Assembly: GCA_949292335.1 (NCBI GenBank)
Contig: CASEYY010000015.1
Coordinates: forward strand, 11,981 to 75,980
Source of the DNA: an uncultured Pseudomonadota bacterium
Lineage (GTDB): Bacteria > Pseudomonadota > Alphaproteobacteria > RF32 > CAG-239
DNA: 64,000 bases
Reading direction: 5' to 3'
Shown here: piece by piece, positions 21,023 through 51,526 of the stretch
Numbering within the stretch: the stretch's first letter is position 1
Layout of the letters: the number at the start of each line of letters is the position of its first letter
Made by a program: the position numbers and the translations under genes
Notes under the pieces: generated by a model
What the model was told of the DNA's origin: nothing
The model's database searches: none
The model's input: only the letters and a program-made list of their open reading frames with translations

Positions 21023-23065
21023 ATGAAAAAGAGCAGACAGAACATACTAAACAAAGCCTCAGCGGTATTGTTTTTTAGCATAGCAATACCGGCGATTGCG
21101 TCTGCTCAAATTCTTGAAGCCCAGTCTGCAGCTGAATTTGCTGAGAGTCTCGGAGGGGAAGGTGCGAGAATAAGTAAATTGCTTAACAAGCAAGCAAGTG
21201 AAGAAAGCGGAATTATATGCGGAAGCTTAAAAACTATTTGTGACCGAGAGACGGAATATTGCTTAAAATGTTCATATTCATATGAGATGACGGGTGATTC
21301 ATACGAGACTGGCACCACGGTGCTTGGTGTTTGCGTTTCTAAAAATAGTGTGAATTTAAACGATTTGAAATCAAGTTTTCCAGGTGGTTGCGGAAAAACA
21401 GAAAAAAAAGGTTTAGATGCAATTCTTAGCTTTCAGAATAAGCAATCTGAAGGAGAGGTGACAATAGAAACCGCAGATTGGATTGATCACGGAGAACACG
21501 AACAATTTGGTTATAAAAGTAAAAACAGAGAACCTTTTAAAGCCGCAGATGGGAAGAGCTACACACTCCTTTTGTCATCGAATAACCCATCAATAGCATA
21601 TGGTGAAAACAGTGAAAACTCATCTACATCTTTCACGGGTTGTGAAGTTCTGCCGATTAAGCTTTACAATATGCAAAACTGCTTTTTCTGTCCTTTGGCG
21701 GCGGTTGTTTTCGGAGCTTCAAATAACATCACGGTAAAAGCGTTTTCGATTTTTGCCAAGCCGTTTGCTGTAATAGTCGGTATCCTTTTTGCTTTATGGT
21801 TAGCACTGTTGGCTCTTAAGCAGGTGTTTTCCATGACCAAACAAGATGCTCCGAAATTCCTGACGACTATCCTCAAACAAGGATTTAAGGTCGCTTTGGC
21901 AATTTTGCTTCTTACGCATTCGGCAGATTTGTTTCGCTATTTCATAATTCCGGTTTTAGACGGCGGACTGCAAATGGGAACACAGATACTTACCGTTAAG
22001 CTTCCGGCGAGGAATGGAAATGAAGAAGCGGCTTCCACAAGCACCACTGACAGAAGCTATTTTAATATGCCGATAGCAAGAAATGCTGCCGGCGAGGACA
22101 TAACACTTTATAGCAAACTGGAAACATATTTGCGTTCCATCCAATATCAGTTGTCATATATGCAGGCCATCGGTACATCTTTATTTTGCGTCGGCGGGCA
22201 CGAAATATTCACAACCAATAAAGACGATTTCATGGCCGGTTTGGGAATGATGGGACTGGGCACGATTTTTGTAGTTTTTGGTTTTCTGCTGACCATAACA
22301 TTTGCATTCTATTTTCTGGATGCATTATTGCAGCTTTCGGTAATTGGGGCGATGATGCCGCTGATGATTGCCGGTTGGCCGTTCAGAGCCACTGCTCAAT
22401 ATGCCTCCACCGGATTTAAATTATTGCTCAATACTTTCTTTGTGATGTTTTTCACCGGTTTTGTCATCAGTGTTAATATTGAGCTGATTAACCAATCAAT
22501 GTCTTATTCACAGGTTGCGAATCAGGCAAATACCAACCAAGTTCAGATGGTGAATAACGATAATTTTAACAAAATAGCTCTGGCCATTAACGAACAAAAT
22601 ATTGATAATCTCAAAAAGGCAACCGACATCGGAGGGGTGGGATTTTTATTAATAATTTTCTCTTGTTTGTTTGGCTATAAATTTGTAGCCCAAGTTAATC
22701 CGTTAGCTGCCAAGTTGGCAGACGGCGGAGTATTTGCCGGTATGACAGGCAAGATAGGCTCCATGGCGGCATCAACCATCAAAGGAGCTGCCGGCAAGGT
22801 AGCCCAGCCTTTTGGAGCGGCATTTACCGCTGCTACAGGCGGAGTAGCAGGTATAGCAGCCGGAGCTGCCGGAGCAATAACCTCTACTGCCGGAAGCTTA
22901 GTCTCTACGGTAGGTAAGGGTGTTTCCAAGGCCGGAAATAAGATTGGCGGCAATGTCGGCAAGGCGGTCTCCGGTGTTGGAAAAGCTGTTTCCGGAACCG
23001 GTAAGGCTGTTTCTGCGGTCGGTGGTGTCGGCAAAAAAGTACAAGATATTTACCGCCGCAAGTAA
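21023..23065 (+). CDS. virB6: VirB6/TrbL-like polytopic membrane protein with Cys-rich N-domain and Gly/Ala/Lys repeat tail
   Basis: Signal peptide, a ~200-aa Cys-rich domain, at least 5 TM segments including ...FYFLDALLQLSVIGAMMPLMIAGWPF..., and a C-terminal (GKAVSG)-like repeat tail. Confidence 0.55.
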   Translation: MKKSRQNILNKASAVLFFSIAIPAIASAQILEAQSAAEFAESLGGEGARISKLLNKQASEESGIICGSLKTICDRETEYCLKCSYSYEMTGDSYETGTTVLGVCVSKNSVNLNDLKSSFPGGCGKTEKKGLDAILSFQNKQSEGEVTIETADWIDHGEHEQFGYKSKNREPFKAADGKSYTLLLSSNNPSIAYGENSENSSTSFTGCEVLPIKLYNMQNCFFCPLAAVVFGASNNITVKAFSIFAKPFAVIVGILFALWLALLALKQVFSMTKQDAPKFLTTILKQGFKVALAILLLTHSADLFRYFIIPVLDGGLQMGTQILTVKLPARNGNEEAASTSTTDRSYFNMPIARNAAGEDITLYSKLETYLRSIQYQLSYMQAIGTSLFCVGGHEIFTTNKDDFMAGLGMMGLGTIFVVFGFLLTITFAFYFLDALLQLSVIGAMMPLMIAGWPFRATAQYASTGFKLLLNTFFVMFFTGFVISVNIELINQSMSYSQVANQANTNQVQMVNNDNFNKIALAINEQNIDNLKKATDIGGVGFLLIIFSCLFGYKFVAQVNPLAAKLADGGVFAGMTGKIGSMAASTIKGAAGKVAQPFGAAFTAATGGVAGIAAGAAGAITSTAGSLVSTVGKGVSKAGNKIGGNVGKAVSGVGKAVSGTGKAVSAVGGVGKKVQDIYRRK

Positions 23066-27665: not shown

Positions 27666-28007
27666 ATGCAATTTATAAAGAACAATATTTGGACCTTGTG
27701 TCTTGTAGTTTTGGCAGGTTTGTTTGCCTTTACTGGTGATGCAGCCGCTCAGGGTTCAGTAATGGAACTTGGTAAACAAAAAGCATTGAATGTGTTTACC
27801 TCAGTTAAAACAATTATTTTCATCGTTGGTGGTTTTGGTCTTGTAGGTATTGCCTTTGCCGCTATTTTCGGAAAAGTAAACTGGAAATGGTTTGCAGCTT
27901 TGGCTGTAGGTTTGGCAATTTTGGCTGCTGCCGGATCAATTGTTAACTACGCAACCGGTGATAGCATTAGTGGCTTTAACGATACCTTCTCGTCAGCTAC
28001 TAACTAA
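27666..28007 (+). CDS. virB2: VirB2/TrbC-like T4SS pilin
   Basis: 113 aa with a signal peptide ending AAA|QG, then two hydrophobic helices joined by GKVNWKW. Size and topology fit VirB2, and it is the first gene of the T4SS block. Confidence 0.6.
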   Translation: MQFIKNNIWTLCLVVLAGLFAFTGDAAAQGSVMELGKQKALNVFTSVKTIIFIVGGFGLVGIAFAAIFGKVNWKWFAALAVGLAILAAAGSIVNYATGDSISGFNDTFSSATN

Positions 28008-28020
28008 GGTTTTAGGTCAA

Positions 28021-28052
28021 GGCTTCGAGGCTTATGCAAAAGCCTCGGGGCC
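28021..28052 (+). terminator. Strong stem-loop after the small pilin gene (possible partial terminator or mRNA stabiliser)
   Basis: GGCTTCGAGGCTT-ATGCAA-AAGCCTCGGGGCC forms a 13-bp stem with two G-U pairs. No U-tract follows. Confidence 0.3.
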
Positions 28053-28155
28053 TAAGGCCTAAATAAAAGAAGGCTGGATTTATTTTTATACAAGTAACGG
28101 TGTGCAAAAACAAACTCAGTCAATAAAAGCGAACTAAGGCAAATAGGAGGATAAG

Positions 28156-28833
28156 ATGTATAAGTTAAAAGACATATTAAAAGTGCTTCTTATAGCCTTG
28201 TTTGTTTGTGTTTACAGCGCCGGAGATGTTTACGCCCAGACTGATATGTGCGGAGGCCCGTGTCCAGAAGGAAGTGTATGTACTAAAACAATGTCAAATG
28301 TAAATGGTGCAGACGAATGGAGATGCGTGCTCAAAGCAAAACCGACAGGAGATGTTAATACGGAAGGCCAAGGAGGTGCGACACAAAATGCCAACTTCTG
28401 CGGTACTGACGGCGGAGCGTTTTCTCAACTTGTAACTACCGGAGTTCTGATTTTCAAAAGATTACGCGATTTGATATATGTTGTAGCCGGTTTTGGTATT
28501 ATAGCGGTGGCTGTCGGAGGATTCTTTGGTAACCTCAACTGGAAGTGGCTGGGCGCGATAATCATTTCGCTGGTGGTTATAGCTTCTGCCGGAGAAATTG
28601 TTGCCATGATAACAGGATGTAGCAGTTTTGATGGAGGTCTCATTACCAACACACTAACACATCCCACCGGCATGAGTACACAAGAATTTAATGATACCTA
28701 TACCGAAAGAGTAAAGTTAAACAAGACCATAGACTGGAACGACAGTATGGATGTTTATACTCCACCTAACAGTTCTAGTGCTGCCGAAGCAGCCATTGAA
28801 GAGACTGGTTTAGAAGAAAACACTGCAGAATAA
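28156..28833 (+). CDS. VirB2-hairpin paralog with Cys-rich N- and extended C-terminal domains
   Basis: Signal peptide, then CGGPCPEGSVC...C region. The hairpin LIYVVAGFGIIAVAVGGFFGNLNWKWLGAIIISLVVIASAGEIVAMITG aligns with the 27666 product. About 75 additional C-terminal residues follow. Confidence 0.55.
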   Translation: MYKLKDILKVLLIALFVCVYSAGDVYAQTDMCGGPCPEGSVCTKTMSNVNGADEWRCVLKAKPTGDVNTEGQGGATQNANFCGTDGGAFSQLVTTGVLIFKRLRDLIYVVAGFGIIAVAVGGFFGNLNWKWLGAIIISLVVIASAGEIVAMITGCSSFDGGLITNTLTHPTGMSTQEFNDTYTERVKLNKTIDWNDSMDVYTPPNSSSAAEAAIEETGLEENTAE

Positions 28834-28868
28834 GATTATAAGGACGGATAAGGATACAGGAGGGAGCC

Positions 28869-31800
28869 ATGATGAAATTATCTAAAATAAGCAAGGTAAT
28901 AATGCTGATTGGCATAATTATGGCCTTCTCAACTGGTAATGTTTTTGCAGCCAGTGACTGCGAAAAGCAATGTAGCGAAACATACAAAGGTAATCGCTCG
29001 CAAATATCTGCTTGTAAAGCTCAGTGTAAAGCCGACGAGGCTAACCAAAAAGCAACAAATACACAGGCGGCACAAGATACTGCGATAAATGATAGATGGA
29101 AGCAAGCGCAGTCAACAAAAGAAATGACGCAGAACACCTATACAGATGCTTCGGTAAAATATAATACATGTGTCGCAACTAAAGGTGCAAATGCTTGTCA
29201 GGCTGAAAAGAAAGCAATGGAAGATGCCAAGTTTGACTTTGACGCTGCCAATGAATCTTATAACGATGCTCAAAAAGATGCTTCAAAGGCCTACTGGGAA
29301 AATAAAAAAATGCAAGAGAAGGCTGATGCGGCAGCCGCCAAGGCTGAGCAGAAGCAGATAAAAGCCGATCAAAAAGCATTAAAAGATGCCGAAAAAGCTC
29401 TCAAAAAATGTGAAAAAGAAAACGGAGAAGGTAATTGTGCTGCAGAAGAATCCGCTGTTGCCGAGGCTCAGCAAAAGGTTGATTCTCATAATCAAGCCGT
29501 TGAAGGTACATCAGGAGAAGATGCGCAACTAAACGCATTACAAAATGAATTTACCAGCGCTGGTTCAGATTATGGTAAACAATCTGATGCTCTCAACTCG
29601 ATGAAAAATTATAGCAATGAACTTACGGTCGCAGCCGCAGCCGCCTCTGCGGAATGTACAAGATACAGTGCAATGACATCTCAAGATGCCAGAGCAAAGG
29701 CAAAAGATGCCTGTGCTCAGGCAGAGGCATTAAAAGCTCAAGCAGAAGCCGCTCAATCAGCATATGAAGAAGCAAAAAATGCTATGGCCGACAGACCGTT
29801 ATCAGAAAGTGTATTGGCTGCTCAGGGTCGTGTAAAACAAGGAACAAAAAACGACAATAGCTACGGAATAGTAGACATAGATGAAGCTCGCCAAATATCA
29901 ATGAGTGGCAGCGATGCAAACAGTTTTGCCGGCTATAGGTCTGAAAAATTTAATTATGACTCCGGAGGAGATGTTCTAGAAAAGATAACTCGTCGTGCAG
30001 CCAGAGTTGTCGTTGGTCTCAAACCCTTAGTGTATATATTTGCCGGTTTTGGCTTAATCGGCTTTGCGTGGGCTGCAATTTTCAATAAATTAAGCTGGAA
30101 GTGGTTTGCTAATATTGCAATGGGTTTGTTCTTGGTCGCTAATATGGGACGACTGATTGAATATATGGTTGCCGGAGATGGTGGTACCCACTATTATATA
30201 GGGGTGTGGGACGATGGCGCGACACCAACCGGAACTAAAACCGATGGCGCTAACCAACTAGCCAATGCCTTCAAAGATAGCTATTATGTATATGGTGATA
30301 ATGTAGATAGACAAACAGGTTTAAGAATGTTTGAGCTTAGCGCGCAGGGTACAGATACGGAAAAAGTCGCAGAAGAATTCACGGCATCTGCAGCAGGGTT
30401 CTGCCAAGGTACCAGCGGTTCTGGTTGGGCTAACTTCACCAGCTGTGTCAAAGATGTTATTTCAACGGCTAAAAAAGCTGCCGATACTGTAAAGACAACG
30501 GTTGCCGTTGCTCAAGATATGAAGGCTCGTGTCGATACCGTAAAAGATACTGTTTCCAATATCACGCAGGCTGCTAAAAATATGAAAGGGGCAAGCTTAA
30601 CTGAAATTGTAACCAATACAGGTATAATTTTAAGCAATGTTAACACAGCTGTCTCTACCACCACTGGAGCTATTGGTTCGGTTACCAATGCTATGTCTAC
30701 AATATCTAACAACGTCCAAGATATGGGCAAGAGTGTAGAACAACAAAAAGAATTGCAAGACCGCCGCAACAGCGGAGAAGCCACCAATGCCTTTGACGCT
30801 ATGTTGAAAGGTCAGGAGTGGGATGCTTCAACCGGAGGTGTAGAAAATGTTGATGGCGAATGGGCCGGCCAGAGTAATTTCATAACAACGACCAATGACT
30901 TAGCTTCAGATATCAGCGACAAGTCATCACAACTTAACGGTTTAGCTCAAGACGGTTTGATGCAGGTAGGTGTGGTTACCAACGCTATAGAAAGTGCACC
31001 AATCCTTCCGGGAGGTAAGAGCCTGTATGATAAATATGCAGATAATAAAGAGCAAAAGGTACAACAAAATCGTGCTCAAGCACAGGCTGCCGCCGATCAA
31101 GCTTATCGCGAAAGCAATGCCGGCAAAAATGAGGATTATCGAGCCAAGAGCGAACAAGTAAGCAATATGTATAACGATATGCAGAAGCAAGAACAAGAAG
31201 TTAAGCAGTTGCAAAATCAAAAAGCCAGTGCCGAAAAGGCAGTTGAGCAGAATTGTAACGGCGATAACGATACCTCTCCTTTGTGTCAAGCTTCGCGCAA
31301 TAGCTTGAAGGCAGTTGAGGATTCTCTACAGGCCAAAGAAGAGCAATTAAATAAGACCAAAGATGAGTATGATGAGGCCAAGAGGTCAATGGAACACGCC
31401 TATAACGAGGCTCTAGATAGTAACATATCTAAGGCTGAGGAAGATTACGAAAAGGCAGCTAAGGATGCAGATGATATTTGTAGCAAAAATCCTGGAAGTT
31501 CTGAATGCGCAAATGCTCGTCAAAAAGCTCTTGATGCCGCCAATACTCTGACCTCTTATGTAAATGAGAAAGAAAATGCAACCGGCGATAGTCGCTATGA
31601 GACCTCAGAGGATACGGCCAATAAGCTGGTAAGCAATGAAGATGAACAAAAACTCAAAGAAATGGAAAAACAACTTGCCTATGAGCAAGAGCAAGAAGCC
31701 AATAGATTGAAACACGAGGCCGAGATTGCTAACAGCCAGTATGAGCAAGCAATGTCTGAAGCAGACGCCCTCTATTCTGCGGTCAACAGTCAAGAACAAC

Positions 31801-33143
31801 AGGTAAAACAACTTGAGCAAGAAGCCGCAAGCAAACAGCAGAGTGCCGACAGAGCCTGTGCAACCGATCCTAACAGCTCGTTGTGTACAACCGCCAGAGA
31901 GGCTTCGTCTGCCGCCAATGCTGCTCTTAATAATAAAAAAGACCAGCTCGAGCAGACCAAAAATGATTATGATGCAGCCAAAAACAAAGCCGAAGACGCA
32001 TATCAAAATGCTCTGACTGCCAACCAAAATCAGGCTCAAAGAGATTTGGAAAACGCTAAAGAAAAATCTGAAAATGCCAAAGCAACTCTTGATGAGGTTA
32101 ATAGCAAGATTGATGGTGCCAAAGATGATATGAATACGGCCAAAGATGAGTACAATCAAGCCATGAAAGACGCTCAGGCTGCGCAAGATGCATACAATCA
32201 AGCTGTTTCAAGCGGTGCAAATCAGTCCGAAATCAATAGATTGAAGCGCGAATACGAAAATAAGCTTGCTGAGATGAGTGACAAAAAGGACAATTACGAA
32301 GAAAAGAATAAAGAATACAATGATTTATCCAAACAAAAAGAACAAGCTCAACGCGATTATAACAGCGCGTACTCAGAGGCTAACGATGCTGCTGAAAGAC
32401 TGGATTCTTACACCAATGAGGATGTCAACAAAACCGGTGATAGTCGTTTAACCTCAAGTGAAGATGTTGCAAATCAAATATTGGTTAACCAATATGAGAG
32501 CGAAACTAATCCCAATGCAGTAGCTCAGGCTTCTAAAAACAGCTATGTCGAGCAAAAAAATAAGACCGATGTAGCCGAATATACCAAAAATGAGAAAGAG
32601 GCAGCCGCCGCCAACACCTATAATGAATACCAAAAGGCTCTGCAACGGTGTCAACAAAGCGGAAATACAAGCGATTGCCAGTTAGCCGATCGTCTTGCAA
32701 GTCAGTACAGCCTAGCAGCCAGCGAAGCCGCTGCTGCCAAGCAAGAGTACGAAGCCTTGAACAGTGAGCTTCAGAGCTACGAAAGTGACTATCAACGCAA
32801 GGCCTTGGAGTCCGAAAAATATAAGCAACGCGAATATCAAGCCGATATGCAGGAAGCGTCATCTGATATCAACAAATATGAAAGATTGGTATCGCAGCAA
32901 AGAAATGTAGTGGACGACGCCGCACTTAGGTACACTCAAGCCAAAAACAGCTTGCAGGAGGGTGATGAAGCAGGCTTAAGAAGAGCGGCTCAACTCTATG
33001 ATGAATACAAAGAAGCCAAGGCTCTGTATGATGAATACCAAAGCAAGTTAAATCAGGCCAGAAACAAGTTGAGTACGGCTCAAAGCAACTACGATAAATC
33101 GGTTGCTGAGGTGAGACGGCTTGAAAAAGAGTTGTACGGCTAA
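28869..33143 (+). CDS. Giant (1424 aa) coiled-coil protein with embedded VirB2-like membrane hairpin
   Basis: Signal peptide, ~350 aa A/K/Q/E-rich helical region with paired Cys, the hairpin LVYIFAGFGLIGFAWAAIFNKLSWKWFANIAMGLFLVANMG (nt ~30001-30180), then ~980 aa of mostly coiled-coil-like sequence. Confidence 0.6.
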   Translation: MMKLSKISKVIMLIGIIMAFSTGNVFAASDCEKQCSETYKGNRSQISACKAQCKADEANQKATNTQAAQDTAINDRWKQAQSTKEMTQNTYTDASVKYNTCVATKGANACQAEKKAMEDAKFDFDAANESYNDAQKDASKAYWENKKMQEKADAAAAKAEQKQIKADQKALKDAEKALKKCEKENGEGNCAAEESAVAEAQQKVDSHNQAVEGTSGEDAQLNALQNEFTSAGSDYGKQSDALNSMKNYSNELTVAAAAASAECTRYSAMTSQDARAKAKDACAQAEALKAQAEAAQSAYEEAKNAMADRPLSESVLAAQGRVKQGTKNDNSYGIVDIDEARQISMSGSDANSFAGYRSEKFNYDSGGDVLEKITRRAARVVVGLKPLVYIFAGFGLIGFAWAAIFNKLSWKWFANIAMGLFLVANMGRLIEYMVAGDGGTHYYIGVWDDGATPTGTKTDGANQLANAFKDSYYVYGDNVDRQTGLRMFELSAQGTDTEKVAEEFTASAAGFCQGTSGSGWANFTSCVKDVISTAKKAADTVKTTVAVAQDMKARVDTVKDTVSNITQAAKNMKGASLTEIVTNTGIILSNVNTAVSTTTGAIGSVTNAMSTISNNVQDMGKSVEQQKELQDRRNSGEATNAFDAMLKGQEWDASTGGVENVDGEWAGQSNFITTTNDLASDISDKSSQLNGLAQDGLMQVGVVTNAIESAPILPGGKSLYDKYADNKEQKVQQNRAQAQAAADQAYRESNAGKNEDYRAKSEQVSNMYNDMQKQEQEVKQLQNQKASAEKAVEQNCNGDNDTSPLCQASRNSLKAVEDSLQAKEEQLNKTKDEYDEAKRSMEHAYNEALDSNISKAEEDYEKAAKDADDICSKNPGSSECANARQKALDAANTLTSYVNEKENATGDSRYETSEDTANKLVSNEDEQKLKEMEKQLAYEQEQEANRLKHEAEIANSQYEQAMSEADALYSAVNSQEQQVKQLEQEAASKQQSADRACATDPNSSLCTTAREASSAANAALNNKKDQLEQTKNDYDAAKNKAEDAYQNALTANQNQAQRDLENAKEKSENAKATLDEVNSKIDGAKDDMNTAKDEYNQAMKDAQAAQDAYNQAVSSGANQSEINRLKREYENKLAEMSDKKDNYEEKNKEYNDLSKQKEQAQRDYNSAYSEANDAAERLDSYTNEDVNKTGDSRLTSSEDVANQILVNQYESETNPNAVAQASKNSYVEQKNKTDVAEYTKNEKEAAAANTYNEYQKALQRCQQSGNTSDCQLADRLASQYSLAASEAAAAKQEYEALNSELQSYESDYQRKALESEKYKQREYQADMQEASSDINKYERLVSQQRNVVDDAALRYTQAKNSLQEGDEAGLRRAAQLYDEYKEAKALYDEYQSKLNQARNKLSTAQSNYDKSVAEVRRLEKELYG

Positions 33144-33166
33144 AACAAGTTAACTCATTATTCATA

Positions 33167-33216
33167 AAACGGAAGTATGCTCTTAACATAAAGTTATGTA
33201 ATACTTCCGTTTTTTA
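33167..33216 (+). terminator. Rho-independent terminator closing the pilin-paralog operon
   Basis: AAAACGGAAGTA...TACTTCCGTTTT is a 12-bp stem followed by TTTTT. Confidence 0.75.
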
Positions 33217-33253
33217 TGTGTCAAATAGATGTAGGATAAAATTATTTGTATTG

Positions 33254-33313: not shown

Positions 33314-33604
33314 ATGCGAGAAGTGATATTAAAAGCAGTTGCCAATCCGCCCAAGATTTTGTGGGGGCCGTTTCTGCCGGTTCTGCTCAATCTCGGGGTA
33401 CAATTTCCGATAATGTTTATGTTTATGGGAACATTCAATGTAAACCCTTTGTGGTTTATGGTGTCTTTGGTCTTGGGGCATGTTTTTAGCGTTTTTATGG
33501 GTATCAAAGAACCTCACATCTCGGCAATGATTCAAGCCTATGGTCAAAGTGCCAAAAAAACAACTAACCTCTATAAAGTAAAGGGGAACAAATTTGCACC
33601 CTGA
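33314..33604 (+). CDS. virB3: VirB3-like protein
   Basis: 96 aa with two hydrophobic segments (WGPFLPVLLNLGVQFPIMFMFMG / LWFMVSLVLGHVFSVFMG). It overlaps the start of virB4 by 11 nt, as is usual for virB3-virB4. Confidence 0.6.
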   Translation: MREVILKAVANPPKILWGPFLPVLLNLGVQFPIMFMFMGTFNVNPLWFMVSLVLGHVFSVFMGIKEPHISAMIQAYGQSAKKTTNLYKVKGNKFAP

Positions 33605-36023
33605 TTATGATTTTTTCTCGATCTTCGTTGAAGGTCTGTCAAGTTTTGAAATATTGGTTGCCGTTATAGGTTTTATTTCGGCAGCGGCTTTTGCCGGTTT
33701 TTGGGCAACCAAATTCGGTCATTTGGTCTTGCCGCACCCTAGAGAGTCCCGAGTTTCGGATTTTATGCCGTTTGAAAAACTTCTTTCCGACGGTATGACG
33801 ATTCGTTGCTATAACGGCTCTTTGGCTCGCGTGTTCAGAGTTACCGGAGCTGATCTTGCATTTGCTACCGATGAAAAAGTTCTATCAATGTTTGAAGCCA
33901 GAAAGTCATGGATTGACGGTATGTCCGACTTGCAGGTTACTTGTAGGGTTATTACCATAAGAGAGAGAGTCCCGCTGGAAGATAATGTAAACAACTTTAA
34001 CAATGCTCTTTTGGAAAAGATATCGGAAGTATGGCAAGAAAACATTGACAATGTATTTTTCAATACACACTACATAGTTTTGTCGGTTGCCGACCGCGAT
34101 GAAAATCTCAAAGATTTGAACTATGCTTCACAATCCCTCATCGCGACCCTTAACGACTACGGTGTTAAACCTCTCATTGAGGAAGAAGGCAGCCCCGCAG
34201 AGGATAGTCCGTTTATAGTTTATTCCAAACTTTGCTCACCGATATCTCGTCCCATGCCAAAGGTCAGAGGAGCCGTCGGAGCACAGTTAAACCAGCTTTT
34301 GACGGCTGACCATATTCATTTTACCGGCGAAGAAGGACTTATCAAGTTTTTCTCCGGAGAGAAAGAGCTTTATGAAGCGGTAATGGGAATTCGTTCATCC
34401 GGTGACTATATGGACGAAGCGATGGTCTCCTCACTTTTGGCCATTGACTGCGAGCTGGTTTTGTTGCACAACATTCGCCCGATATTTAAGCCACAAGCCC
34501 GAGCATTACTGTTGCAGCAACAAAGAATGGCGGCCATGACCAGCTTTTCTGGAGATGTTATCGGACAATACAGCGAAGTGCTGTCGGCTATTGAAGAAAG
34601 CGACAGCGATCACCAGGCGTTAACCGAATATGCCATGGCGATATTGCTCAGAGGAAAGACCAAAGAAGAAATAGACAATGCCGAGAGCGAGGTTCAAAGA
34701 ATATGCCGTCTTTTCAGCGTTACGCCGGTGAGAGAAGGTTGGGTTGCTCAGGCCACATTCTTTAACCAGTTTCCGACCTATGAAACCTTACCGAGAACCT
34801 ATCGTTATTTGTCCAGGGTCGTTGCGACGGCGGTTTCGTTCGACAAGCCTTCGGAAGGCTTCTCCAAGTCCGACTGGGGTCCGGGAGCAATCACCGTTTT
34901 CCGTACCACTTCCGGTTCGGCTTATCGGTTTCAGTTCCATGTTTCATCAGAAGATTCTGCGGTTGCACACTGTTGTATTATCGGTCCTACCGGTCAAGGT
35001 AAAACTACATTGTTGACCTTTTTGGCCGGACAGGCAATGCGACATGGCGATTTAAAGGTGTTTTTCTTTGATCGTCACCGCGGTGCCGAAATATTTACTC
35101 GTGCGGTTAAGGGTGCGTATATCGGTTTTGAAGGTGATGAAAAGAATGTTTCGCTTAATCCTTTTGCCTGTGCCAATACGCCCAATAACAGAGCATTTTT
35201 GCGTCGTTGGATGCGAGCCATAACACTGGTTGATGATGCGGTTTCGGAAAAGGAAATTGCTCGAGCTGTTACCACGGCATTTGATTATCTGCGTCCGGAA
35301 GAAAGAATGATGAGTAACCTGTATAAGAGTTGCTTTTCGCCGACCGGTAATATGCGTCGAGAATTGTTTAAATGGGTAAATCCCGATCAATACGGCAGTA
35401 TTTTTAATTCTCAAGACGATAGCTTGGACCTAAAGAGTAAAAGGTTTATGGCTTTTGACTTTACACATATATTTGAAGACGAAACCTTGGCTCCGGCGGT
35501 AATCAGTTACATTATGCACCGCATACAGTCCGAAACCGGGGATACCGGAGTTCCGTCTCTGATTATGATAGATGAAACGGCACCTATGTTGAAGCACCCA
35601 ATGTTCCGAGACTATTTCACTATCGGACTACAGGAAGGTCGTAAAAAACGGCAGGCATATTTATGTGCATTTCAGCAGCCCAATATTATTGATAAACTCG
35701 GGGTCGGCGAAGTAATTCGCGGTCAGTGCCAAACCGTAATCTTTTTCCGCAACCCGCAGGCCATGCCGGAAGATTACTTAAACTGGAATTTAACCGAAGC
35801 CGAAACTGATTTTATTTTTGGTAAAAGCTACCGTGATTTCCCGTATGCCATTCTTTTGTCGCGTCCGGCAACCGGAGAATCGGTGATTTTGGATGTAGAT
35901 TTGAGCGGATTAGGTCCATATCTTAAGATATACAATTCCGGCCGAAAGAATGTTTTGTTAGTTGAAGAGCTAATAAAAGAATATGGCGAAGACAACTTTG
36001 TTACAAAATATTTAAATCTTTAG
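33594..36023 (+). CDS. virB4: VirB4 ATPase
   Basis: 809 aa with Walker A IIGPTGQGKTTLL, Walker B LIMIDETAPML, and a typical VirB4 N-domain (...RCYNGSLARVFRVTGADLAF...). It uses a TTG start with AAGGGG 6 nt upstream. Confidence 0.9.
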   Translation: MHPDYDFFSIFVEGLSSFEILVAVIGFISAAAFAGFWATKFGHLVLPHPRESRVSDFMPFEKLLSDGMTIRCYNGSLARVFRVTGADLAFATDEKVLSMFEARKSWIDGMSDLQVTCRVITIRERVPLEDNVNNFNNALLEKISEVWQENIDNVFFNTHYIVLSVADRDENLKDLNYASQSLIATLNDYGVKPLIEEEGSPAEDSPFIVYSKLCSPISRPMPKVRGAVGAQLNQLLTADHIHFTGEEGLIKFFSGEKELYEAVMGIRSSGDYMDEAMVSSLLAIDCELVLLHNIRPIFKPQARALLLQQQRMAAMTSFSGDVIGQYSEVLSAIEESDSDHQALTEYAMAILLRGKTKEEIDNAESEVQRICRLFSVTPVREGWVAQATFFNQFPTYETLPRTYRYLSRVVATAVSFDKPSEGFSKSDWGPGAITVFRTTSGSAYRFQFHVSSEDSAVAHCCIIGPTGQGKTTLLTFLAGQAMRHGDLKVFFFDRHRGAEIFTRAVKGAYIGFEGDEKNVSLNPFACANTPNNRAFLRRWMRAITLVDDAVSEKEIARAVTTAFDYLRPEERMMSNLYKSCFSPTGNMRRELFKWVNPDQYGSIFNSQDDSLDLKSKRFMAFDFTHIFEDETLAPAVISYIMHRIQSETGDTGVPSLIMIDETAPMLKHPMFRDYFTIGLQEGRKKRQAYLCAFQQPNIIDKLGVGEVIRGQCQTVIFFRNPQAMPEDYLNWNLTEAETDFIFGKSYRDFPYAILLSRPATGESVILDVDLSGLGPYLKIYNSGRKNVLLVEELIKEYGEDNFVTKYLNL

Positions 36024-44828: not shown

Positions 44829-45584
44829 ATGGAAACCAGACAGCTTTCGGGCGGTACCAAGACCCTAGCAATAGAAGGCAACGCCAAAGCTCCGCAATAT
44901 ATAAATGAATTGGAAGAAGAGCAAAGTACTTTTCGCCAAGTGTATTACTTGTGGGTTTCGCGTTTTTTTATAGTTATAGCAACCATATCAATGATGTTTT
45001 TTGTTATGGCGTCACTAGCGTTATTCAGACTTGCTCCGATGGTTGAGGTTGAGCCTTTTTTACTGATAAACCAGAGTGAATCGGAAAATATTGTCAGGAA
45101 TGAGGCCGTTTCGCAAGATATGACCTCAAAAGACAAACTTCTTGAAATGTTTATCCGGCAATATGTAATTCTCCGCAACACCATAATTAACGATCCGGTT
45201 GAGATGCGTAGTCGCTGGATGGGAGGCGGAATGTTGAACTATCTTTCATCTCCAGAGGTCTATAATGAATTTGGTAATTCGACCAAGCAAGTTTGGGAGA
45301 ATATATTTAAGCAAACATTAGTAAGAGAAGTCGAAATTATTTCCGTTACCCGCCAAGGCGGAAAGAGATCGGCGGTGTGGAAGGTTGATTTTAAGACATA
45401 CGACCTTTACAATGAGCAAGGTAAAACACAAGCACAACAAGAGACTACCTTGCGTGTAAGATATTGGACCTCATCCATCACGGCGTATTTTATTCCCGAA
45501 AGAGCATTTGTGGCAACCCGTTTGATAAATCCGCTCGGCTTTACGGTAACCCGTTACTCTCAGACCGAAGTCGAAATATTCTAA
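44829..45584 (+). CDS. virB8: VirB8-like protein (copy a)
   Basis: Bitopic. The TM is followed by LAPMVEVEPFLL, then FIRQYVILRNT, and the C-terminus is INPLGFTVTRYSQTEVE. All three are typical VirB8 landmarks. Confidence 0.8.
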   Translation: METRQLSGGTKTLAIEGNAKAPQYINELEEEQSTFRQVYYLWVSRFFIVIATISMMFFVMASLALFRLAPMVEVEPFLLINQSESENIVRNEAVSQDMTSKDKLLEMFIRQYVILRNTIINDPVEMRSRWMGGGMLNYLSSPEVYNEFGNSTKQVWENIFKQTLVREVEIISVTRQGGKRSAVWKVDFKTYDLYNEQGKTQAQQETTLRVRYWTSSITAYFIPERAFVATRLINPLGFTVTRYSQTEVEIF

Positions 45585-45688
45585 TTTGTTGATAAGTATA
45601 CCTAAGCTGTTAGACATTTAAAATAAAACAGTATAACTTTATACTGTCTGCAGGACTAAATTGGTCCTGCCAAAAGGAAGGTGTATCT

Positions 45689-45877
45689 ATGAATAATCGA
45701 ATTAAGCTGTTGATATTGTTTGGTTTGCTAGCTCTCTCCGGCTGCTACGGGTCATACTATGAGCCGGAGCCGGTAGGTATCGGTACCGGTGCCGATGAAT
45801 TGAAATTATCGCCCTGTGCCTGTATGGAGATAGAACTGCCTAAAAACCTGCCGGATTGGTTTGTTGCAACAATTTAG
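45689..45877 (+). CDS. Small lipoprotein, VirB7-like by position
   Basis: 62 aa with lipobox LALSGC, located between two virB8 genes and upstream of virB9. Confidence 0.45.
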   Translation: MNNRIKLLILFGLLALSGCYGSYYEPEPVGIGTGADELKLSPCACMEIELPKNLPDWFVATI

Positions 45878-45894
45878 TTTAAGGGAGTTCCGAA

Positions 45895-46629
45895 GTGGAC
45901 GGAATAGAAGGAAACAGACCGCAACCTAGACTTATCGGCAATCAAAACGCCCCCAGACGCCCTGCGTCCAAGAAATCGGTACGCGATGAAGTGTTTGTGG
46001 CTAATATTGCCGAAAAGAGATATTTGTGGACGGCACGTGCATTTGCCGTAATTACAGCGTTTAGTCTGTGCTGCAACATCGTTTTGATACTGGCAATTCT
46101 GCAGGTTGTTCCGCTATACCGCATTGAGCCGTTCTTGCTTACTTTTCAAAATCGTTCCGAACAAGTTTATAATATTCAGCCGATAACCACTGAGCTTAGA
46201 AATCGTAAGGCGATTACCGAAGTCTTTGTTCGAGAGTATGTTTTGTTGAGAAGTACTTTCAGCAGTGATGTCGCCGAGGTTGAGGCCAGATGGATGCCGG
46301 GAGGTCCGATACAGGAGATGTCGGATAATCGAGTTTATCAAGATTTTTTGGATAATGTAGCCAAGCGAGCGGTAGATATCATAAAAAATCAAGGTATGGA
46401 GCGAAGTGTAAAAATACTTTCGGTTAATGAGCTCACGGACGGAGTATGGCAAGTTGAATATGAGACCAGAGATATGTATCCGTCTTCGGCAGAGCCGGAG
46501 ATAGGTTATTGGACGGCCTCTCTTAATGTCGGATATCGTCGCAAGAGTGTTAAATATGGCGACAGGTTGAAAAATCCGGTTGGGTTTACGGTTTATAGAT
46601 ATGCGTTGAGCCGCAATAAAGTAGGGTAG
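45895..46629 (+). CDS. virB8: VirB8-like protein (copy b)
   Basis: GTG start with AAGGGAG upstream. The TM is followed by VVPLYRIEPFLL, then FVREYVLLRST, and the C-terminus contains NPVGFTVYRYALS. Confidence 0.8.
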   Translation: MDGIEGNRPQPRLIGNQNAPRRPASKKSVRDEVFVANIAEKRYLWTARAFAVITAFSLCCNIVLILAILQVVPLYRIEPFLLTFQNRSEQVYNIQPITTELRNRKAITEVFVREYVLLRSTFSSDVAEVEARWMPGGPIQEMSDNRVYQDFLDNVAKRAVDIIKNQGMERSVKILSVNELTDGVWQVEYETRDMYPSSAEPEIGYWTASLNVGYRRKSVKYGDRLKNPVGFTVYRYALSRNKVG

Positions 46630-46636
46630 AAATAAA

Positions 46637-48211
46637 GTGTCGAAAAATATAAAAATAAAATTTTTGTTGTCAGTATTGTCGTTGTTGGTTGCTTTCGAAG
46701 CTAAATCTCAGGTAGACCAACAGATGATGGATGCCAGTGCCGAACAGGCTCAGGGCAATTATACGCCGATGAACCTAAATTATGCCGGCTTTAATTCTTT
46801 GGGTATGACACAAGCGGCGTGGCTTGATCCTTTGCAAAATCTCGGAGAGGGGCAAAGCAAGCCGGCATATTCGAAATATTACTGGACTCCGGATCTGGTT
46901 TTGCCGATAAGAGTACGCGAAGGAATGATTACCATGATTAACTTTCCTTCATGGGAGTTGATCGAAGATATTTTTATTGGCGACAGTGCAACTTTTGACG
47001 GCCAGATATCCGGTCCGTCCACCCTTTTACTTTATCCCAGAAAAGGTTCCAATGTCGGCGTTGATACCAACATAATTGTTTTCGGCCGTTCCGGCAACAG
47101 ATATGTGTTTTATGTGAAATCGGAGGCGGTTAATACCGAAAGGCTCACCAATGCAATAATTGATATAGAGGTTGTTGACGGGCAGGGAAATGGTGCAAAC
47201 GGAAATCTTCCGTCCGGCGGTGTCATGGGTTCGGCCAATGGTGGCTTGGCGGCATCAGGTAATAAATCCTTAGCCTCGACCTATACCCGAAGGAATCAAG
47301 ACAGTGATTGGATTAAGAGTATTCCGGTTGATCCAAGCGATTTCAGATTTGACTTGGAAGTCTATGTTCCCAATCCAGATGATGTGGTTATTGCCCCCGA
47401 GAGAGTATGGAGAGATAATATCTTTACATATATTGACTTAGGTAAAAAGGCTTTGAATATGACGCAAAGACCGGTTGTCAGTATGATCGTTGAGAGAGTT
47501 GAGGTTCCGGTAGGTTTCCGCACCAAAGGCCCGGACAACAGACTGATTATTGTAGAGGGCATTGGCGATATGGTTTTGCGCAATGGTAAAAGACTTATTT
47601 GCATAAAGATGCGTCGCTCCGATGAAAGCGGACTGGAGTACGCTATTAATTCTGCAGATTATCTGCCGCCGAAATGGGAAGTTTCACCGGCAATACCCAA
47701 TTCACAGACCATGGGTTATGGCAACAATATTAATTCGACTCCGCTGCAAGTCGGCGGCCAGCTTGATATTCAAGCCGGACAGAGCCAGATTATCGTTCCC
47801 GAATATACCAGATCCGGTCAAAACGGGATGAACGGCGGTAATATAGCAGACAGCTTTGATTATTCAAAAATGCAGAGGATAAGTAACAGTGGAGCATCAT
47901 CAGTACCGCAGCCAAACTACACTTACGGTACCGGCATAGTTTCGGGCGATAACTCCAATATCTCCATTGAGCTCGGAGCAAACTCAAATGTTAACGATCT
48001 TGAAACATTATGGGATAAGTTGTCCTCTCAATACAGCGACATTTTGGGTGGTTTTTCGCCGTTTTTCTCAGTTGATGCTCCGGCAGATGGTCAAGGTAAG
48101 GAACTGTTCCATCTTCGTGTAGGACCGGTTAAAGACTTAAATGCCGGCGATAAAATATGCGGGGAGCTAGGTCGCAACGGAGTATTCTGCAGCGTAGTAA
48201 GGACCCAATAA
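46637..48211 (+). CDS. virB9: VirB9-like protein with C-terminal SPOR-like domain
   Basis: GTG start and a signal peptide. VirB9 N-domain: IRVREGMITMINFPSWELIEDIFIGDSATFDG...TNIIVFGRSGNRYVFYVKSE. C-terminal domain: VEVPVGFRTKG. Tail: ...LFHLRVGPVKDLNAGDKICGELGRNGVFCSVV, which resembles the FtsN-type SPOR. Confidence 0.8.
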   Translation: MSKNIKIKFLLSVLSLLVAFEAKSQVDQQMMDASAEQAQGNYTPMNLNYAGFNSLGMTQAAWLDPLQNLGEGQSKPAYSKYYWTPDLVLPIRVREGMITMINFPSWELIEDIFIGDSATFDGQISGPSTLLLYPRKGSNVGVDTNIIVFGRSGNRYVFYVKSEAVNTERLTNAIIDIEVVDGQGNGANGNLPSGGVMGSANGGLAASGNKSLASTYTRRNQDSDWIKSIPVDPSDFRFDLEVYVPNPDDVVIAPERVWRDNIFTYIDLGKKALNMTQRPVVSMIVERVEVPVGFRTKGPDNRLIIVEGIGDMVLRNGKRLICIKMRRSDESGLEYAINSADYLPPKWEVSPAIPNSQTMGYGNNINSTPLQVGGQLDIQAGQSQIIVPEYTRSGQNGMNGGNIADSFDYSKMQRISNSGASSVPQPNYTYGTGIVSGDNSNISIELGANSNVNDLETLWDKLSSQYSDILGGFSPFFSVDAPADGQGKELFHLRVGPVKDLNAGDKICGELGRNGVFCSVVRTQ

Positions 48212-48218
48212 GACAATT

Positions 48219-51524: not shown

Positions 51525-51526
51525 AT

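What the first reader, a model, noticed from the sequence alone, without database searches (positions are those of the whole stretch)
27666..33143. Three paralogous VirB2-hairpin proteins of 113, 225 and 1424 aa in one operon
All three products share an alignable two-helix hydrophobic hairpin with a conserved basic/aromatic turn:
- ...IFIVGGFGLVGIAFAAIFGKVNWKWFAALAVGLAILAAAG
- ...IYVVAGFGIIAVAVGGFFGNLNWKWLGAIIISLVVIASAG
- ...VYIFAGFGLIGFAWAAIFNKLSWKWFANIAMGLFLVANMG
The first has canonical VirB2/TrbC size. The second adds a Cys-rich N-domain and a C-tail. The third embeds the hairpin between ~350 aa and ~980 aa of coiled coil. The operon is bounded by a strong terminator at 33167-33216. Inference: the larger paralogs could co-assemble into, or cap, the pilus polymer and display long fibrous domains. 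I do not know of a described VirB2 with megadalton-scale extensions.
Basis: partly seen in the sequence, partly recalled or inferred. Interest (0 to 1): 0.8.

Follow-up and report, generated by a model that had tools for sequence, protein, structure and literature searches.

The report
Giant modular VirB2 pilin paralogs
An uncultured gut alphaproteobacterium starts its type IV secretion gene cluster with three related pilin genes, and one of them has grown into a 156 kDa protein with the pilin hairpin in the middle, a form of this pilin I could not find described in the literature I searched.

Summary
Three + strand genes (113, 225 and 1424 aa) share a two-helix hairpin. Pairwise BLASTP E-values are 4e-19 to 4e-11, and alignment scores lie 14-21 sd above shuffles. 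The hairpin is TrbC/VirB2 (PF04956). The small protein passes the Pfam cut-off, the 225-aa one misses it by 0.6 bit, and the giant passes only through its orthologues that lack the N-terminal insertion (30-40 bits).

The triplet A-B-C, followed by a VirB3-like gene and VirB4, is present in every related locus with enough flank, across 46 species-level gut Alphaproteobacteria MAGs. The third gene ranges from 153 to 2058 aa.

All three proteins have Sec-type leaders. The giant's 20 cysteines all sit in local pairs on both sides of the hairpin. AlphaFold2 predicts the C-terminal 700 aa as long helical hairpins, with four turns at Cys-x8-9-Cys loops. The extensions evolve fast, while the hairpin is held at 70-89% identity between species.

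My best reading is one major pilin plus two modular minor pilins that display disulfide-stapled helical rods outside the cytoplasm. Whether they join the pilus, and where, is inferred and not shown. "Megadalton" is wrong: the protein is 156 kDa. I rate it a new variant of a known kind.

The parts
27666..28007 (+). Class A: canonical VirB2/TrbC pilin, 113 aa, with a Sec-type leader ending AAA|Q. Proposed major pilin.
   Evidence: PF04956 36.9 bits against a cut-off of 27.9. Orthologues of 111-135 aa occur in all related loci, with hairpin identity 0.79 overall and 0.89 within the giant clade.
28011..28063 (+). Strong GC-rich RNA stem-loop directly after the class A gene. It may act as a transcript stabiliser or attenuator.
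   Evidence: The intergenic fold is -47.2 kcal/mol, z -5.5. A hairpin of -21 to -42 kcal/mol sits in the A-B gap of every giant-clade locus and is absent where the gap is only 38 nt.
28156..28833 (+). Class B: 225 aa. It has a signal peptide, a variable Cys-rich N-domain (6 Cys), a VirB2 hairpin at residues 96-154 and a 71-aa C-tail with one Cys just after the hairpin.
   Evidence: PF04956 27.3 bits, E 4e-6. The search found 406 homologues; many carry precomputed PF04956 hits and at least one is named 'TrbC/VirB2 family protein'. Orthologues are 116-310 aa.
28869..28949 (+). Class C giant: Sec-type signal peptide, residues 1-27, ending VFA|AS.
   Evidence: This is read from the sequence. The leader is 53% conserved among homologues. 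No signal-peptide predictor was available.
28950..29948 (+). Class C giant: variable N-terminal extension, residues 28-360. It is helical and holds 10 Cys in 5 local pairs.
   Evidence: Cys pairs were mapped. Helices 235-267 and 272-308 are modelled at pLDDT 72-85. The region cannot be aligned to the closest species, where it is 772 aa instead of 373 aa.
29949..30188 (+). Class C giant: VirB2-type hairpin, residues 361-440, made of an amphipathic helix, TM1, the loop NKLSWKW and TM2.
   Evidence: It is 44% identical to class A, E 4e-19. Isolated, it scores 22.8 bits against TrbC, and 14 of 14 class C hairpins have TrbC as their top family. The motif search found it in 118 of 120 listed homologues; one of the other two, P0045, has a variant loop and P0046 was not checked.
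30189..31028 (+). Class C giant: conserved core of unknown fold, residues 441-720. It includes the invariant motif FCxGxxGxxWxNFxSC and a Thr/Ser/Asn-rich helical region.
   Evidence: It is 50-66% conserved across homologues. A profile of it matches only giant-class proteins in the loci held. The AlphaFold2 model has mean pLDDT 47.5, and neither PDB sequence search nor Foldseek gave a significant match.
31029..33143 (+). Class C giant: variable C-terminal helical-hairpin rod, residues 721-1424, with 8 Cys in 4 Cys-x8-9-Cys loops.
   Evidence: AlphaFold2 pLDDT is 80-95, with helices of up to 111 residues, and four of the helix breaks fall at the Cys loops. Of the 29 substitutions against a same-species variant, 26 lie here.
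33163..33218 (+). Terminator-like hairpin with a U-run after the giant gene.
   Evidence: -18.6 kcal/mol, z -5.4, and no shuffle folded as well. The sequence is shown.
33314..33604 (+). VirB3-like 96-aa protein with two hydrophobic segments. It overlaps the VirB4 start by 11 nt.
   Evidence: The assignment rests on position, size and predicted membrane segments. A 96-aa gene follows the giant in L001, L003 and L051. It has no Pfam hit.
33594..36023 (+). VirB4 ATPase, 809 aa.
   Evidence: PF03135 E 2.5e-15. The best solved relative is TrwK of R388, E 1e-44.
44829..56854 (+). Remaining recognisable type IVA core: VirB8 twice, VirB9 with a SPOR domain, a 1101-aa beta-flower/RHS protein, a 1448-aa VirB10 with beta-flower repeats, and VirB11.
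   Evidence: Pfam hits. The VirB10 C-terminus is closest to ComB10, E 7e-19.
21023..23065 (+). Candidate extended VirB6: 680 aa with about 8 hydrophobic segments.
   Evidence: The PF04610 TrbL/VirB6 hit is weak, 17.2 bits and E 0.0046, below the cut-off.

Best explanation
The three genes encode three old, separately conserved classes of VirB2/TrbC-type pilin proteins. They sit at the head of a chromosomal type IVA secretion system in a lineage of uncultured gut Alphaproteobacteria.

Shown:
- All three have Sec-type leaders and a VirB2 hairpin.
- Class A is a canonical small pilin.
- Class B carries a variable Cys-rich N-domain.
- Class C carries the hairpin between a variable helical N-extension and a conserved core followed by a long helical C-extension.
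- Each class has its own conserved hairpin sequence across 45 species.

Inferred:
- Topology. In canonical VirB2 both ends of the hairpin lie in the periplasm when the protein is in the inner membrane, and on the outer face of the pilus once assembled. The extensions on both sides carry paired cysteines. Both extensions are therefore extracytoplasmic.
- Roles. Class A is the abundant major pilin. B and C are minor 'modular' pilins. They use the hairpin as a membrane-anchor and polymerisation module and display fast-evolving, disulfide-stapled helical rods. For steric reasons the most likely place is the distal tip, as the first subunits laid down in a pilus that grows from its base.
- Function. 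The rods would act as adhesins or spacers for contact with a target cell or host surface.
For: Family membership:
- All 14 isolated class C hairpins have TrbC as their top family.
- Class C orthologues without the N-insertion pass the Pfam cut-off at 40.0, 37.5, 30.6 and 30.5 bits.

Paralogy:
-.

Conserved, non-redundant classes:
- The triplet A-B-C followed by a VirB3-like gene and VirB4 is present in every related locus with enough flank.
- Hairpin identity among orthologues is 0.70-0.79. Between paralogues in the same genome it is 0.35-0.41.

Extracytoplasmic extensions:
- All three have Sec-type leaders.
- All 20 Cys of the giant are in local pairs on both sides of the hairpin.
- Four helix breaks in the AlphaFold2 model coincide with Cys-x8-9-Cys loops.
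- In the T-pilus structure both VirB2 termini are on the outward side and the basic loop faces the lumen (bioRxiv 10.1101/2022.09.25.509369).

A as major, B and C as minor subunits:
- A strong stem-loop follows gene A in every giant-clade locus.
- A terminator-like hairpin follows gene C.

Signs of exposure and diversifying change:
- Class C length runs from 153 to 2058 aa.
- A 16-aa tandem repeat varies in copy number between strains.
- The N-extension is replaced between species whose VirB4 is 96% identical.
- 26 of 29 within-species substitutions lie in the C-extension and none in residues 361-720.

Physical co-assembly of different hairpins:
- A natural fusion of a B hairpin and an A-like hairpin (P0121) was seen in three assemblies, in the B position of an otherwise normal locus.
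Against: - No experiment and no multimer model shows B or C in a pilus.
- A subunit carrying about 1300 extra residues cannot pack along a shaft that passes the outer-membrane channel without large clearance. Only a tip or base position is plausible.
- The other secreted proteins of this cluster also evolve fast (25-48% identity at the same distances). Fast evolution alone therefore does not prove surface exposure.
- Paired cysteines fit a periplasmic location equally well.
- The hairpin and core were modelled only at low confidence.
- Signal peptides and topology were read from the sequence, not predicted with a dedicated tool.
- No adhesin-type domain was found in any extension.
Confidence: 0.5

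Rival explanations
1. B and C stay in the inner membrane. The VirB2 hairpin serves only as an anchor or as a docking element for the VirB3/VirB4/VirB6 base. The helical extensions are periplasmic scaffolds of an unusually large machine. Alternatively C is the last subunit added and acts as a base anchor or terminator, as PapH does in P pili.
For: - The whole apparatus is enlarged: VirB10 is 1448 aa, there is a 1101-aa beta-flower protein, and six secreted proteins of unknown function follow VirB4.
- No VirB5 was detected, and VirB6 has only a weak candidate.
- The class C hairpin is strongly constrained, as expected for a fixed machine contact.
- A bulky subunit would be hard to pass through the outer-membrane channel.
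Against: - Class C length ranges from 153 to 2058 aa, repeat copy number varies within a species, and the N-domain has been replaced between near-identical relatives. This is hard to reconcile with a part that must span a fixed periplasmic distance.
- Within-species substitutions concentrate in the distal rod.
Confidence: 0.3
2. B and C are precursors. Proteases release a normal-sized pilin from the middle, and the N- and C-terminal pieces are propeptides or separately secreted proteins. This would parallel the N- and C-terminal trimming of RP4 TrbC.
For: - A short motif D-[ST]-[FLY] follows the hairpin in all three classes: GFNDTF in A, FNDTY or ITDTLK in B, AFKDSYYVYG in C. It could mark a processing site.
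- Processing of VirB2/TrbC at both ends is established for canonical family members; this rests on my own knowledge and was not checked here.
Against: - No TraF-like or other peptidase was found in the cluster.
- The conserved core directly after the hairpin (residues 441-720), and its complete lack of within-species change together with the hairpin, suggest that hairpin and core work as one unit.
- Making a 1300-aa propeptide for a 70-aa product would be very costly.
Confidence: 0.12
3. The giant ORF is an artefact, for example a misassembly, a fused gene call or a decaying pseudogene. Alternatively the hairpin is an unrelated membrane motif.
For: The giant itself has no Pfam hit above the cut-off, and public sources call it hypothetical.
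Against: - There are 312 homologues. Of the 120 listed, 119 were shown to carry the embedded hairpin and the last, P0046, was not checked.
- The same architecture is found in 46 species-level genomes from independent studies.
- A 98% identical copy of equal length exists in other assemblies.
- Orthologues pass the TrbC cut-off.
Confidence: 0.02

Closest known systems
Canonical VirB2/TrbC pilins (PF04956), for example Agrobacterium VirB2, R388 TrwL, RP4 TrbC
   Same: They share the family-level sequence match, a Sec leader, a two-helix hydrophobic hairpin with a basic loop, and a gene placed directly upstream of virB3-virB4.
   Different: Canonical pilins are about 70-120 aa when mature and have no other domain. 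Here class B adds 70-240 aa. Class C adds 60-1300 aa at the C-terminus and, in one subclade, 320-800 aa between the leader and the hairpin.
Multi-copy VirB2 arrays: Bartonella Trw (TrwL copies), Anaplasmataceae VirB2 paralogues, the six VirB2-like pilins of Patescibacteria
   Same: Several sequence-divergent VirB2 genes sit in tandem in one type IV secretion system. They have been proposed to build variable surface structures (PMC12857230; PMC3556328 is listed).
   Different: I read those paralogues as small pilins of similar size, but their sizes were not checked here. In this lineage the three classes are fixed orthologous lineages with different architectures, and one is a giant.
Modular type IV pilins of type 4 filaments, for example Streptococcus sanguinis PilB
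   Same: The design principle is the same: a pilin module for polymerisation fused to a functional module that the filament displays (PMC8179133).
   Different: The filament family, fold and machinery are unrelated. The proteins here have no class III signal peptide and no prepilin peptidase is involved. This is an analogy, not membership.
Extended subunits of enlarged type IV secretion systems: Rickettsiales VirB6 paralogues of up to about 4300 aa, and Helicobacter CagY (a VirB10 homologue)
   Same: A conserved type IV secretion membrane subunit carries very large hydrophilic extensions (PMC7648143 abstract; PMC12857230). That these extensions are repetitive or variable is from my own knowledge.
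   Different: The extended subunit there is VirB6 or VirB10, not the pilin.
VirB5/TraC pilus-tip protein
   Same: It is a possible functional counterpart. It is a helical, secreted minor pilus component that sits at the tip and mediates contact. No VirB5 was detected in this cluster.
   Different: There is no sequence match. The Foldseek hit of the core model to TrwJ/VirB5 (7o3v_I) is not significant: E 2.3, probability 0.07.

Membership tests
TrbC/VirB2 pilin (PF04956) | Sequence match to the family profile at or above the curated cut-off of 27.9 bits: class A, 113 aa | tested here: met
   36.9 bits, E 4e-9, model positions 5-97 of 98.
TrbC/VirB2 pilin (PF04956) | Sequence match at or above the cut-off: class B, 225 aa | tested here: inconclusive
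   27.3 bits, E 4e-6, which is 0.6 bit under the cut-off and matches only model positions 46-98. Many orthologues carry precomputed PF04956 hits and at least one is named TrbC/VirB2 family protein.
TrbC/VirB2 pilin (PF04956) | Sequence match at or above the cut-off: class C giant, 1424 aa | tested here: inconclusive
   The window protein scores 15.9 bits in full and 22.8 bits as an isolated hairpin, so it is below the cut-off. Class C orthologues whose leader directly precedes the hairpin pass at 40.0, 37.5, 30.6 and 30.5 bits. TrbC is the top family for 14 of 14 class C hairpins.
TrbC/VirB2 pilin (PF04956) | N-terminal Sec-type leader, then two hydrophobic helices joined by a short loop with a basic residue | tested here: met
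   This is read from the sequence and from hydropathy. The loops are GKVNWKW, GNLNWKW and NKLSWKW. No dedicated signal-peptide or topology predictor was available.
TrbC/VirB2 pilin (PF04956) | Small single-domain protein, mature size roughly 70-120 aa | tested here: not met
   Class A meets this. Class B (225 aa) and class C (1424 aa, 156 kDa) do not.
TrbC/VirB2 pilin (PF04956) | Gene lies in a type IV secretion cluster next to virB3 and virB4 | tested here: met
   A VirB3-like gene and VirB4 follow directly. VirB8 (twice), VirB9, VirB10 and VirB11 lie downstream. The same order is seen in L001, L003 and L051.
TrbC/VirB2 pilin (PF04956) | Polymerises with phospholipid into an extracellular pilus | not testable with these tools
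   No multimer prediction is available, and the organism is uncultured.
VirB5/TraC pilus-tip family | Sequence or fold match of the giant's conserved core (residues 441-720) to VirB5 | tested here: not met
   There is no Pfam or PDB sequence hit. The Foldseek hit to 7o3v_I has E 2.3 and came from a low-confidence model.
Modular type IV pilins (type 4 filament superfamily) | Class III signal peptide and the N-terminal alpha-1 pilin helix | tested here: not met
   By my own reading, the leaders are ordinary Sec-type with an Ala-x-Ala-like site. The polymerisation module is a VirB2 hairpin, not a type IV pilin helix. The resemblance is in design only.

The most novel reading that the evidence does not exclude
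In this gut lineage the type IV secretion pilus is a heteropolymer. Its first-assembled distal layer would be made of giant VirB2 subunits. Their conserved post-hairpin core would form the cap, taking the place of the undetected VirB5. Their disulfide-stapled helical rods, tens of nanometres long and exchanged like cassettes between strains, would be the adhesin that selects the target cell. That would be the first modular pilin in the VirB2 family, and a second, independent invention of the 'pilin module plus display module' design known from type 4 filaments.
Probability: 0.3. Interest if true: 0.8.

Novelty: new variant of a known kind. Interest (0 to 1): 0.62.

Why it matters
VirB2 is regarded as a minimal lipid-bound pilin. 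How a type IV secretion pilus gains target specificity is usually put down to VirB5 or to accessory proteins. A conserved lineage in which the pilin itself carries up to about 2000 residues of variable extracytoplasmic rod would show that the VirB2 hairpin tolerates large cargo at both ends. It would also point to a new route to adhesin display.

It provides a natural size series for testing how pilins are extracted from the membrane and passed through the machine. The third gene alone runs from 153 to 2058 aa, and there are also tandem hairpin fusions.

The carriers are uncultured Alphaproteobacteria, recovered repeatedly from human and animal gut metagenomes, whose lifestyle is unknown. A chromosomal, syntenic and enlarged secretion system with hypervariable surface parts suggests a contact-dependent way of life.

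Tried and rejected
- PDB sequence searches with class A, with a class C hairpin profile and with the giant's residues 331-740 found nothing meaningful. The best E-values were 0.1-5, and the hits were spike heptad repeats and unrelated proteins.
- AlphaFold2 on residues 331-740 gave mean pLDDT 47.5. Foldseek on that model gave only generic helical bundles, best E 0.73. I reject the rank-5 hit to the R388 VirB5 stalk chain as chance.
- Foldseek on the 1200-residue model gave only generic long-helix proteins, best E 0.32.
- NCBIfam gave no hits for the three proteins.
- Pfam found no adhesin or other known domain in the extensions of nine class B and C orthologues.
- Self-BLAST of the giant found no significant internal repeat.
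- A profile of the conserved core found no free-standing version in other ORFs of the 50 loci, only weak hits at E about 1e-4.
- I first thought VirB6 was absent. A relaxed scan then showed a weak TrbL/VirB6 hit in a polytopic 680-aa protein upstream, so I dropped that claim.
- I first thought two homologues lacked the hairpin. One, P0045, has a variant loop, SWRHF. P0046 was not checked.
- Seven literature searches found no description of an extended VirB2.
- The tail analysis in the terminator script was too crude to use.
Full report
**1. Observation**

The three + strand ORFs are exactly where the finding places them: 27666-28007 (113 aa), 28156-28833 (225 aa) and 28869-33143 (1424 aa). They contain the quoted hairpin strings.

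The hairpins are clearly related.
- The 113-aa and 1424-aa proteins are 44% identical over 71 aa, E 4e-19.
- The 113-aa and 225-aa proteins are 31% identical over 86 aa, E 3e-16.
- The 225-aa and 1424-aa proteins are 31% identical over 89 aa, E 4e-11.

Local alignment scores lie 14-21 standard deviations above 2000 composition-preserving shuffles. So the similarity is not simply hydrophobic composition. A profile built from the three hairpins hits only these three ORFs among all six-frame ORFs of the window.

**2. The hairpin is VirB2/TrbC**

Pfam PF04956 scores, against a curated cut-off of 27.9 bits, are:
- 36.9 bits for the 113-aa protein.
- 27.3 bits for the 225-aa protein.
- 15.9 bits for the 1424-aa protein.

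The giant's hairpin scanned alone scores 22.8 bits (E 1e-4). TrbC is the top family for all 14 giant-class hairpins tested, best E 8e-7.

The giant's orthologues in related genomes settle the question. In those, the signal peptide directly precedes the hairpin, and they pass the cut-off over nearly the whole model: 40.0, 37.5, 30.6 and 30.5 bits. In the window protein, an insertion of about 330 residues separates leader and hairpin, which costs score.

Searches of solved structures by sequence found no pilin.

**3. Context**

The three genes head a long + strand type IVA secretion cluster. In order it contains:
- a VirB3-like 96-aa gene and VirB4;
- six secreted proteins of unknown family;
- two VirB8 genes;
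- VirB9 with a SPOR domain;
- a 1101-aa beta-flower/RHS protein;
- a 1448-aa VirB10 with beta-flower repeats;
- VirB11.

VirB4 is closest to TrwK of R388 (E 1e-44). The VirB10 C-terminus is closest to ComB10. No VirB5, VirD4, relaxase or pilin peptidase was detected in the window. A 680-aa polytopic protein 4.6 kb upstream has a weak VirB6 hit.

Upstream neighbours are housekeeping genes and a Tcp-like type IVb pilus cluster. The system is therefore chromosomal and shows no sign of being a conjugative element.

A hairpin with a U-run follows the giant gene: 33163-33218, -18.6 kcal/mol, z -5.4.

**4. Distribution**

The window matches contig CASFRM010000006.1, a gut MAG labelled uncultured proteobacterium.

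The giant has 312 homologues at E <= 1e-5. Where a source gives a name, it is 'hypothetical protein'. A motif search found the hairpin embedded, nearly invariant, in 118 of the 120 listed. One of the other two, P0045, carries it with a variant loop. The other, P0046, was not checked.

A scan of one genome per species found 46 loci. By their record titles all are uncultured Alphaproteobacteria or 'uncultured proteobacterium' MAGs. Several titles name gut sources: human gut and Hadza, deer rectum and caecum, a probable rabbit sample ('Lapin'), and a probable mouse gut catalogue record (MGBC).

Every locus with enough flank has three hairpin genes in the same order; two loci (L031, L046) carry a fourth. 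In the loci where genes were called, a 96-aa gene and VirB4 follow.

An exhaustive profile search of 1.84 billion cluster representatives gave 672 hits at E <= 1e-3 and 407 at E <= 1e-10. The best 150 range from 82 to 2138 aa.

**5. Three fixed classes**

The hairpins sort into three orthologous classes, each with its own signature.
- Class A is 111-135 aa apart from two ORF calls of 174 and 182 aa that probably start too far upstream.
- Class B is 116-310 aa. Its N-domain is variable and often Cys-rich. In the giant clade a conserved Cys lies on each side of the hairpin.
- Class C forms a size series. It is 153-285 aa in one group, with only a leader at the N-terminus and a C-extension of 57-183 aa.
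- It is 390-689 aa in a second group.
- It is 785-2058 aa in the group that includes the window. There an N-extension of 317-806 aa was added to a C-extension of 335-1301 aa.

Hairpin identity among orthologues from 45 species is 0.79 for A, 0.76 for B and 0.70 for C. Within the giant clade it is 0.89, 0.87 and 0.83. Between paralogues in a single genome it is only 0.35-0.41. The three classes therefore split before this radiation, and each is under its own purifying selection. That argues for distinct, non-redundant roles.

**6. Anatomy of the giant**

The protein divides into these regions:
- Residues 1-27 are a Sec-type leader.
- Residues 28-360 are a variable helical region.
- Residues 361-440 are the hairpin.
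- Residues 441-720 are a conserved core, 50-66% identical across homologues, with the invariant motif FCxGxxGxxWxNFxSC.
- Residues 721-1424 are a variable helical region.

All 20 cysteines fall in local pairs, ten on each side of the hairpin:
- two C-x3-C pairs;
- five C-x8-C pairs;
- one C-x9-C pair;
- one C-x13-C pair;
- one C-x18-C pair.

Orthologue extensions mostly contain even numbers of Cys as well, although odd counts also occur.

AlphaFold2 on residues 225-1424 gave mean pLDDT 68. Residues 734-1424 scored 80-95 and consist of helices of 46-111 residues, or 7-17 nm. Four of the helix breaks fall on the Cys loops at 796-806, 871-880, 997-1006 and 1261-1270. The C-terminal part is therefore predicted to be a set of long antiparallel helical hairpins with disulfide-closed turns, not one continuous coiled coil.

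The hairpin and the core were modelled poorly. Foldseek gave no significant match for either model. The protein is 156 kDa, so 'megadalton' is wrong.

**7. Topology (inferred)**

A cleavable leader followed by a Cys-paired N-extension puts the N-side outside the cytoplasm. The hairpin then returns the chain to the same side, where the C-extension again carries paired cysteines.

This is the canonical VirB2 arrangement. [quoted passage not shown] The loop, with its basic residue, faces the lumen and binds phospholipid (bioRxiv 10.1101/2022.09.25.509369).

The conserved loop G/N-K-x-x-W-K-W supplies the lysines. Extensions on either end of the hairpin would therefore project from the outer face of a pilus, or into the periplasm while the protein is in the membrane.

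**8. Evidence on function**

(a) A strong stem-loop lies directly after gene A. The intergenic fold is -47 kcal/mol, z -5.5. A comparable hairpin of -21 to -42 kcal/mol occupies the A-B gap of every giant-clade locus. This fits high expression of A relative to B and C, but it has not been measured.

(b) The extensions change very fast compared with the machine. Against the closest species (L006):
- class A is 100% identical and VirB4 is 96% identical;
- the giant's C-extension is 94% identical;
- the giant's N-extension cannot be aligned (373 aa against 772 aa);
- the class B N-domain is 44% identical.

Against a same-species variant, 26 of 29 substitutions lie in the C-extension and none in residues 361-720.

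One abundant species shows a ladder of lengths from 1084 to 1228 aa, all differing by multiples of 16 aa. A 16-aa tandem repeat explains it.

(c) A natural fusion of a B hairpin with an A-like hairpin (P0121) occupies the B position of an otherwise normal locus and was seen in three assemblies. Proteins with two, three and six tandem hairpins also exist, though the latter two were seen on single contigs only. Covalent linkage of different hairpins suggests that they sit side by side in one assembly.

**9. Explanation and rivals**

The best-supported reading is one major pilin (A) plus two modular minor pilins (B and C). The hairpin would be the anchor and polymerisation module, and the extensions would be displayed rods.

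A subunit carrying 1300 extra residues could hardly travel along the shaft through the outer-membrane channel. A distal-tip position, as the first subunits laid down in a base-growing pilus, is the most plausible form of this reading.

I give this 0.5 overall. The identity and architecture part is close to certain. The co-assembly part is inference.

The main rival, at 0.3, keeps B and C in the inner membrane as periplasmic scaffolds or as a base anchor. The enlarged apparatus and the missing VirB5 favour it. The extreme variation in length and sequence counts against it.

A precursor-processing model gets 0.12. It is suggested by a shared D-[ST]-[FLY] motif after each hairpin. The co-conserved core and the lack of any peptidase count against it.

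An artefact reading is excluded by the conservation data.

**10. Comparison with what is known, and novelty**

Class A is an ordinary family member. Tandem VirB2 paralogues are known from Bartonella Trw, the Anaplasmataceae and Patescibacteria. I read those as arrays of small pilins, though I did not check their sizes.

Large extensions are known for VirB6 and VirB10, not for the pilin. A December 2025 review of type IV secretion diversity discusses extended VirB6 and multi-copy VirB2. Its VirB2 and pilin passages do not mention an extended VirB2 (PMC12857230). Seven full-text searches found none either.

The closest design parallel is the modular type IV pilin of an unrelated filament family (PMC8179133).

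I class the finding as a new variant of a known kind. The proteins are in public databases as hypothetical proteins, and no function has been tested.

Noticed in passing
window 21023-23065 (+): A 680-aa protein with about 8 hydrophobic segments has a weak TrbL/VirB6 hit (17.2 bits, E 0.0046, below the cut-off). It may be an extended VirB6. Housekeeping genes separate it from the rest of the secretion cluster. An orthologue of 714 aa is at L001 2151-4295.
   Followed up: partly
window 11231-20854 (-): A Tcp-like type IVb pilus or type II secretion-like cluster (T2SSF, T2SSE ATPase, PilO, secretin, TcpQ) lies next to the type IV secretion locus. Part or all of the same cluster is seen upstream in L001, L003 and L051.
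   Followed up: partly
window 46637-55873 (+): The outer parts of the machine are enlarged. VirB9 has a C-terminal SPOR domain. A 1101-aa membrane-anchored protein has 11 beta-flower repeats plus RHS repeats. VirB10 is 1448 aa, with 9 beta-flower repeats ahead of its TrbI domain. There are also two VirB8 paralogues at 44829-46629.
   Followed up: no
window 36103-44813 (+): Six consecutive proteins with signal peptides (386, 187, 402, 191, 457 and 1279 aa) match no family. The one in the usual virB5 position varies from 386 to 789 aa between species and is only 25-46% identical at distances where VirB4 is 86-93% identical.
   Followed up: partly
P0074 residues about 745-860; P0055-P0120: A 16-aa tandem repeat, GGTNQPLTGGDKPTDN, occurs about 8 times in the C-extension of the giant from an abundant species. 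Protein lengths among its variants run from 1084 to 1228 aa and all differ by multiples of 16 aa, so copy number varies between strains.
   Followed up: partly
L051 8001-8759 (P0121); P0122 in L055 4760-5959; P0123 in L054; P0124: Natural tandem fusions of VirB2 hairpins exist. A B hairpin plus an A-like hairpin in one 252-aa protein was seen in three assemblies. Proteins with two, three and six hairpins also occur; the three- and six-hairpin ones were seen on single contigs only.
   Followed up: partly
window 28950-29948 versus L006 7724-13285: Between two species whose class A pilin is identical and whose VirB4 is 96% identical, the giant's N-extension is replaced (373 aa with 10 Cys against 772 aa with 22 Cys). 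Its C-extension stays 94% identical. This looks like cassette exchange.
   Followed up: partly
class B orthologues, e.g. window 28156-28833 residues 82 and 155: In the giant clade, class B has one conserved Cys just before the hairpin (motif C-x-x-x-x-G-x-F-S) and one just after it (I-T-G-C). They could form a disulfide clamping the two ends of the hairpin. Both are absent from class B in the small-protein clade.
   Followed up: no
window 28090-28000, 28690-28710, 30260-30290 (protein level): A short motif D-[ST]-[FLY] follows the hairpin in all three classes: GFNDTF in A, FNDTY or terminal ITDTLK in B, AFKDSYYVYG in C. Its meaning is unknown.
   Followed up: no
window 62397-63368 (-): A protein with two helix-turn-helix (Cro/C1-type) domains is encoded convergently at the end of the secretion cluster. 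It may be a regulator.
   Followed up: no
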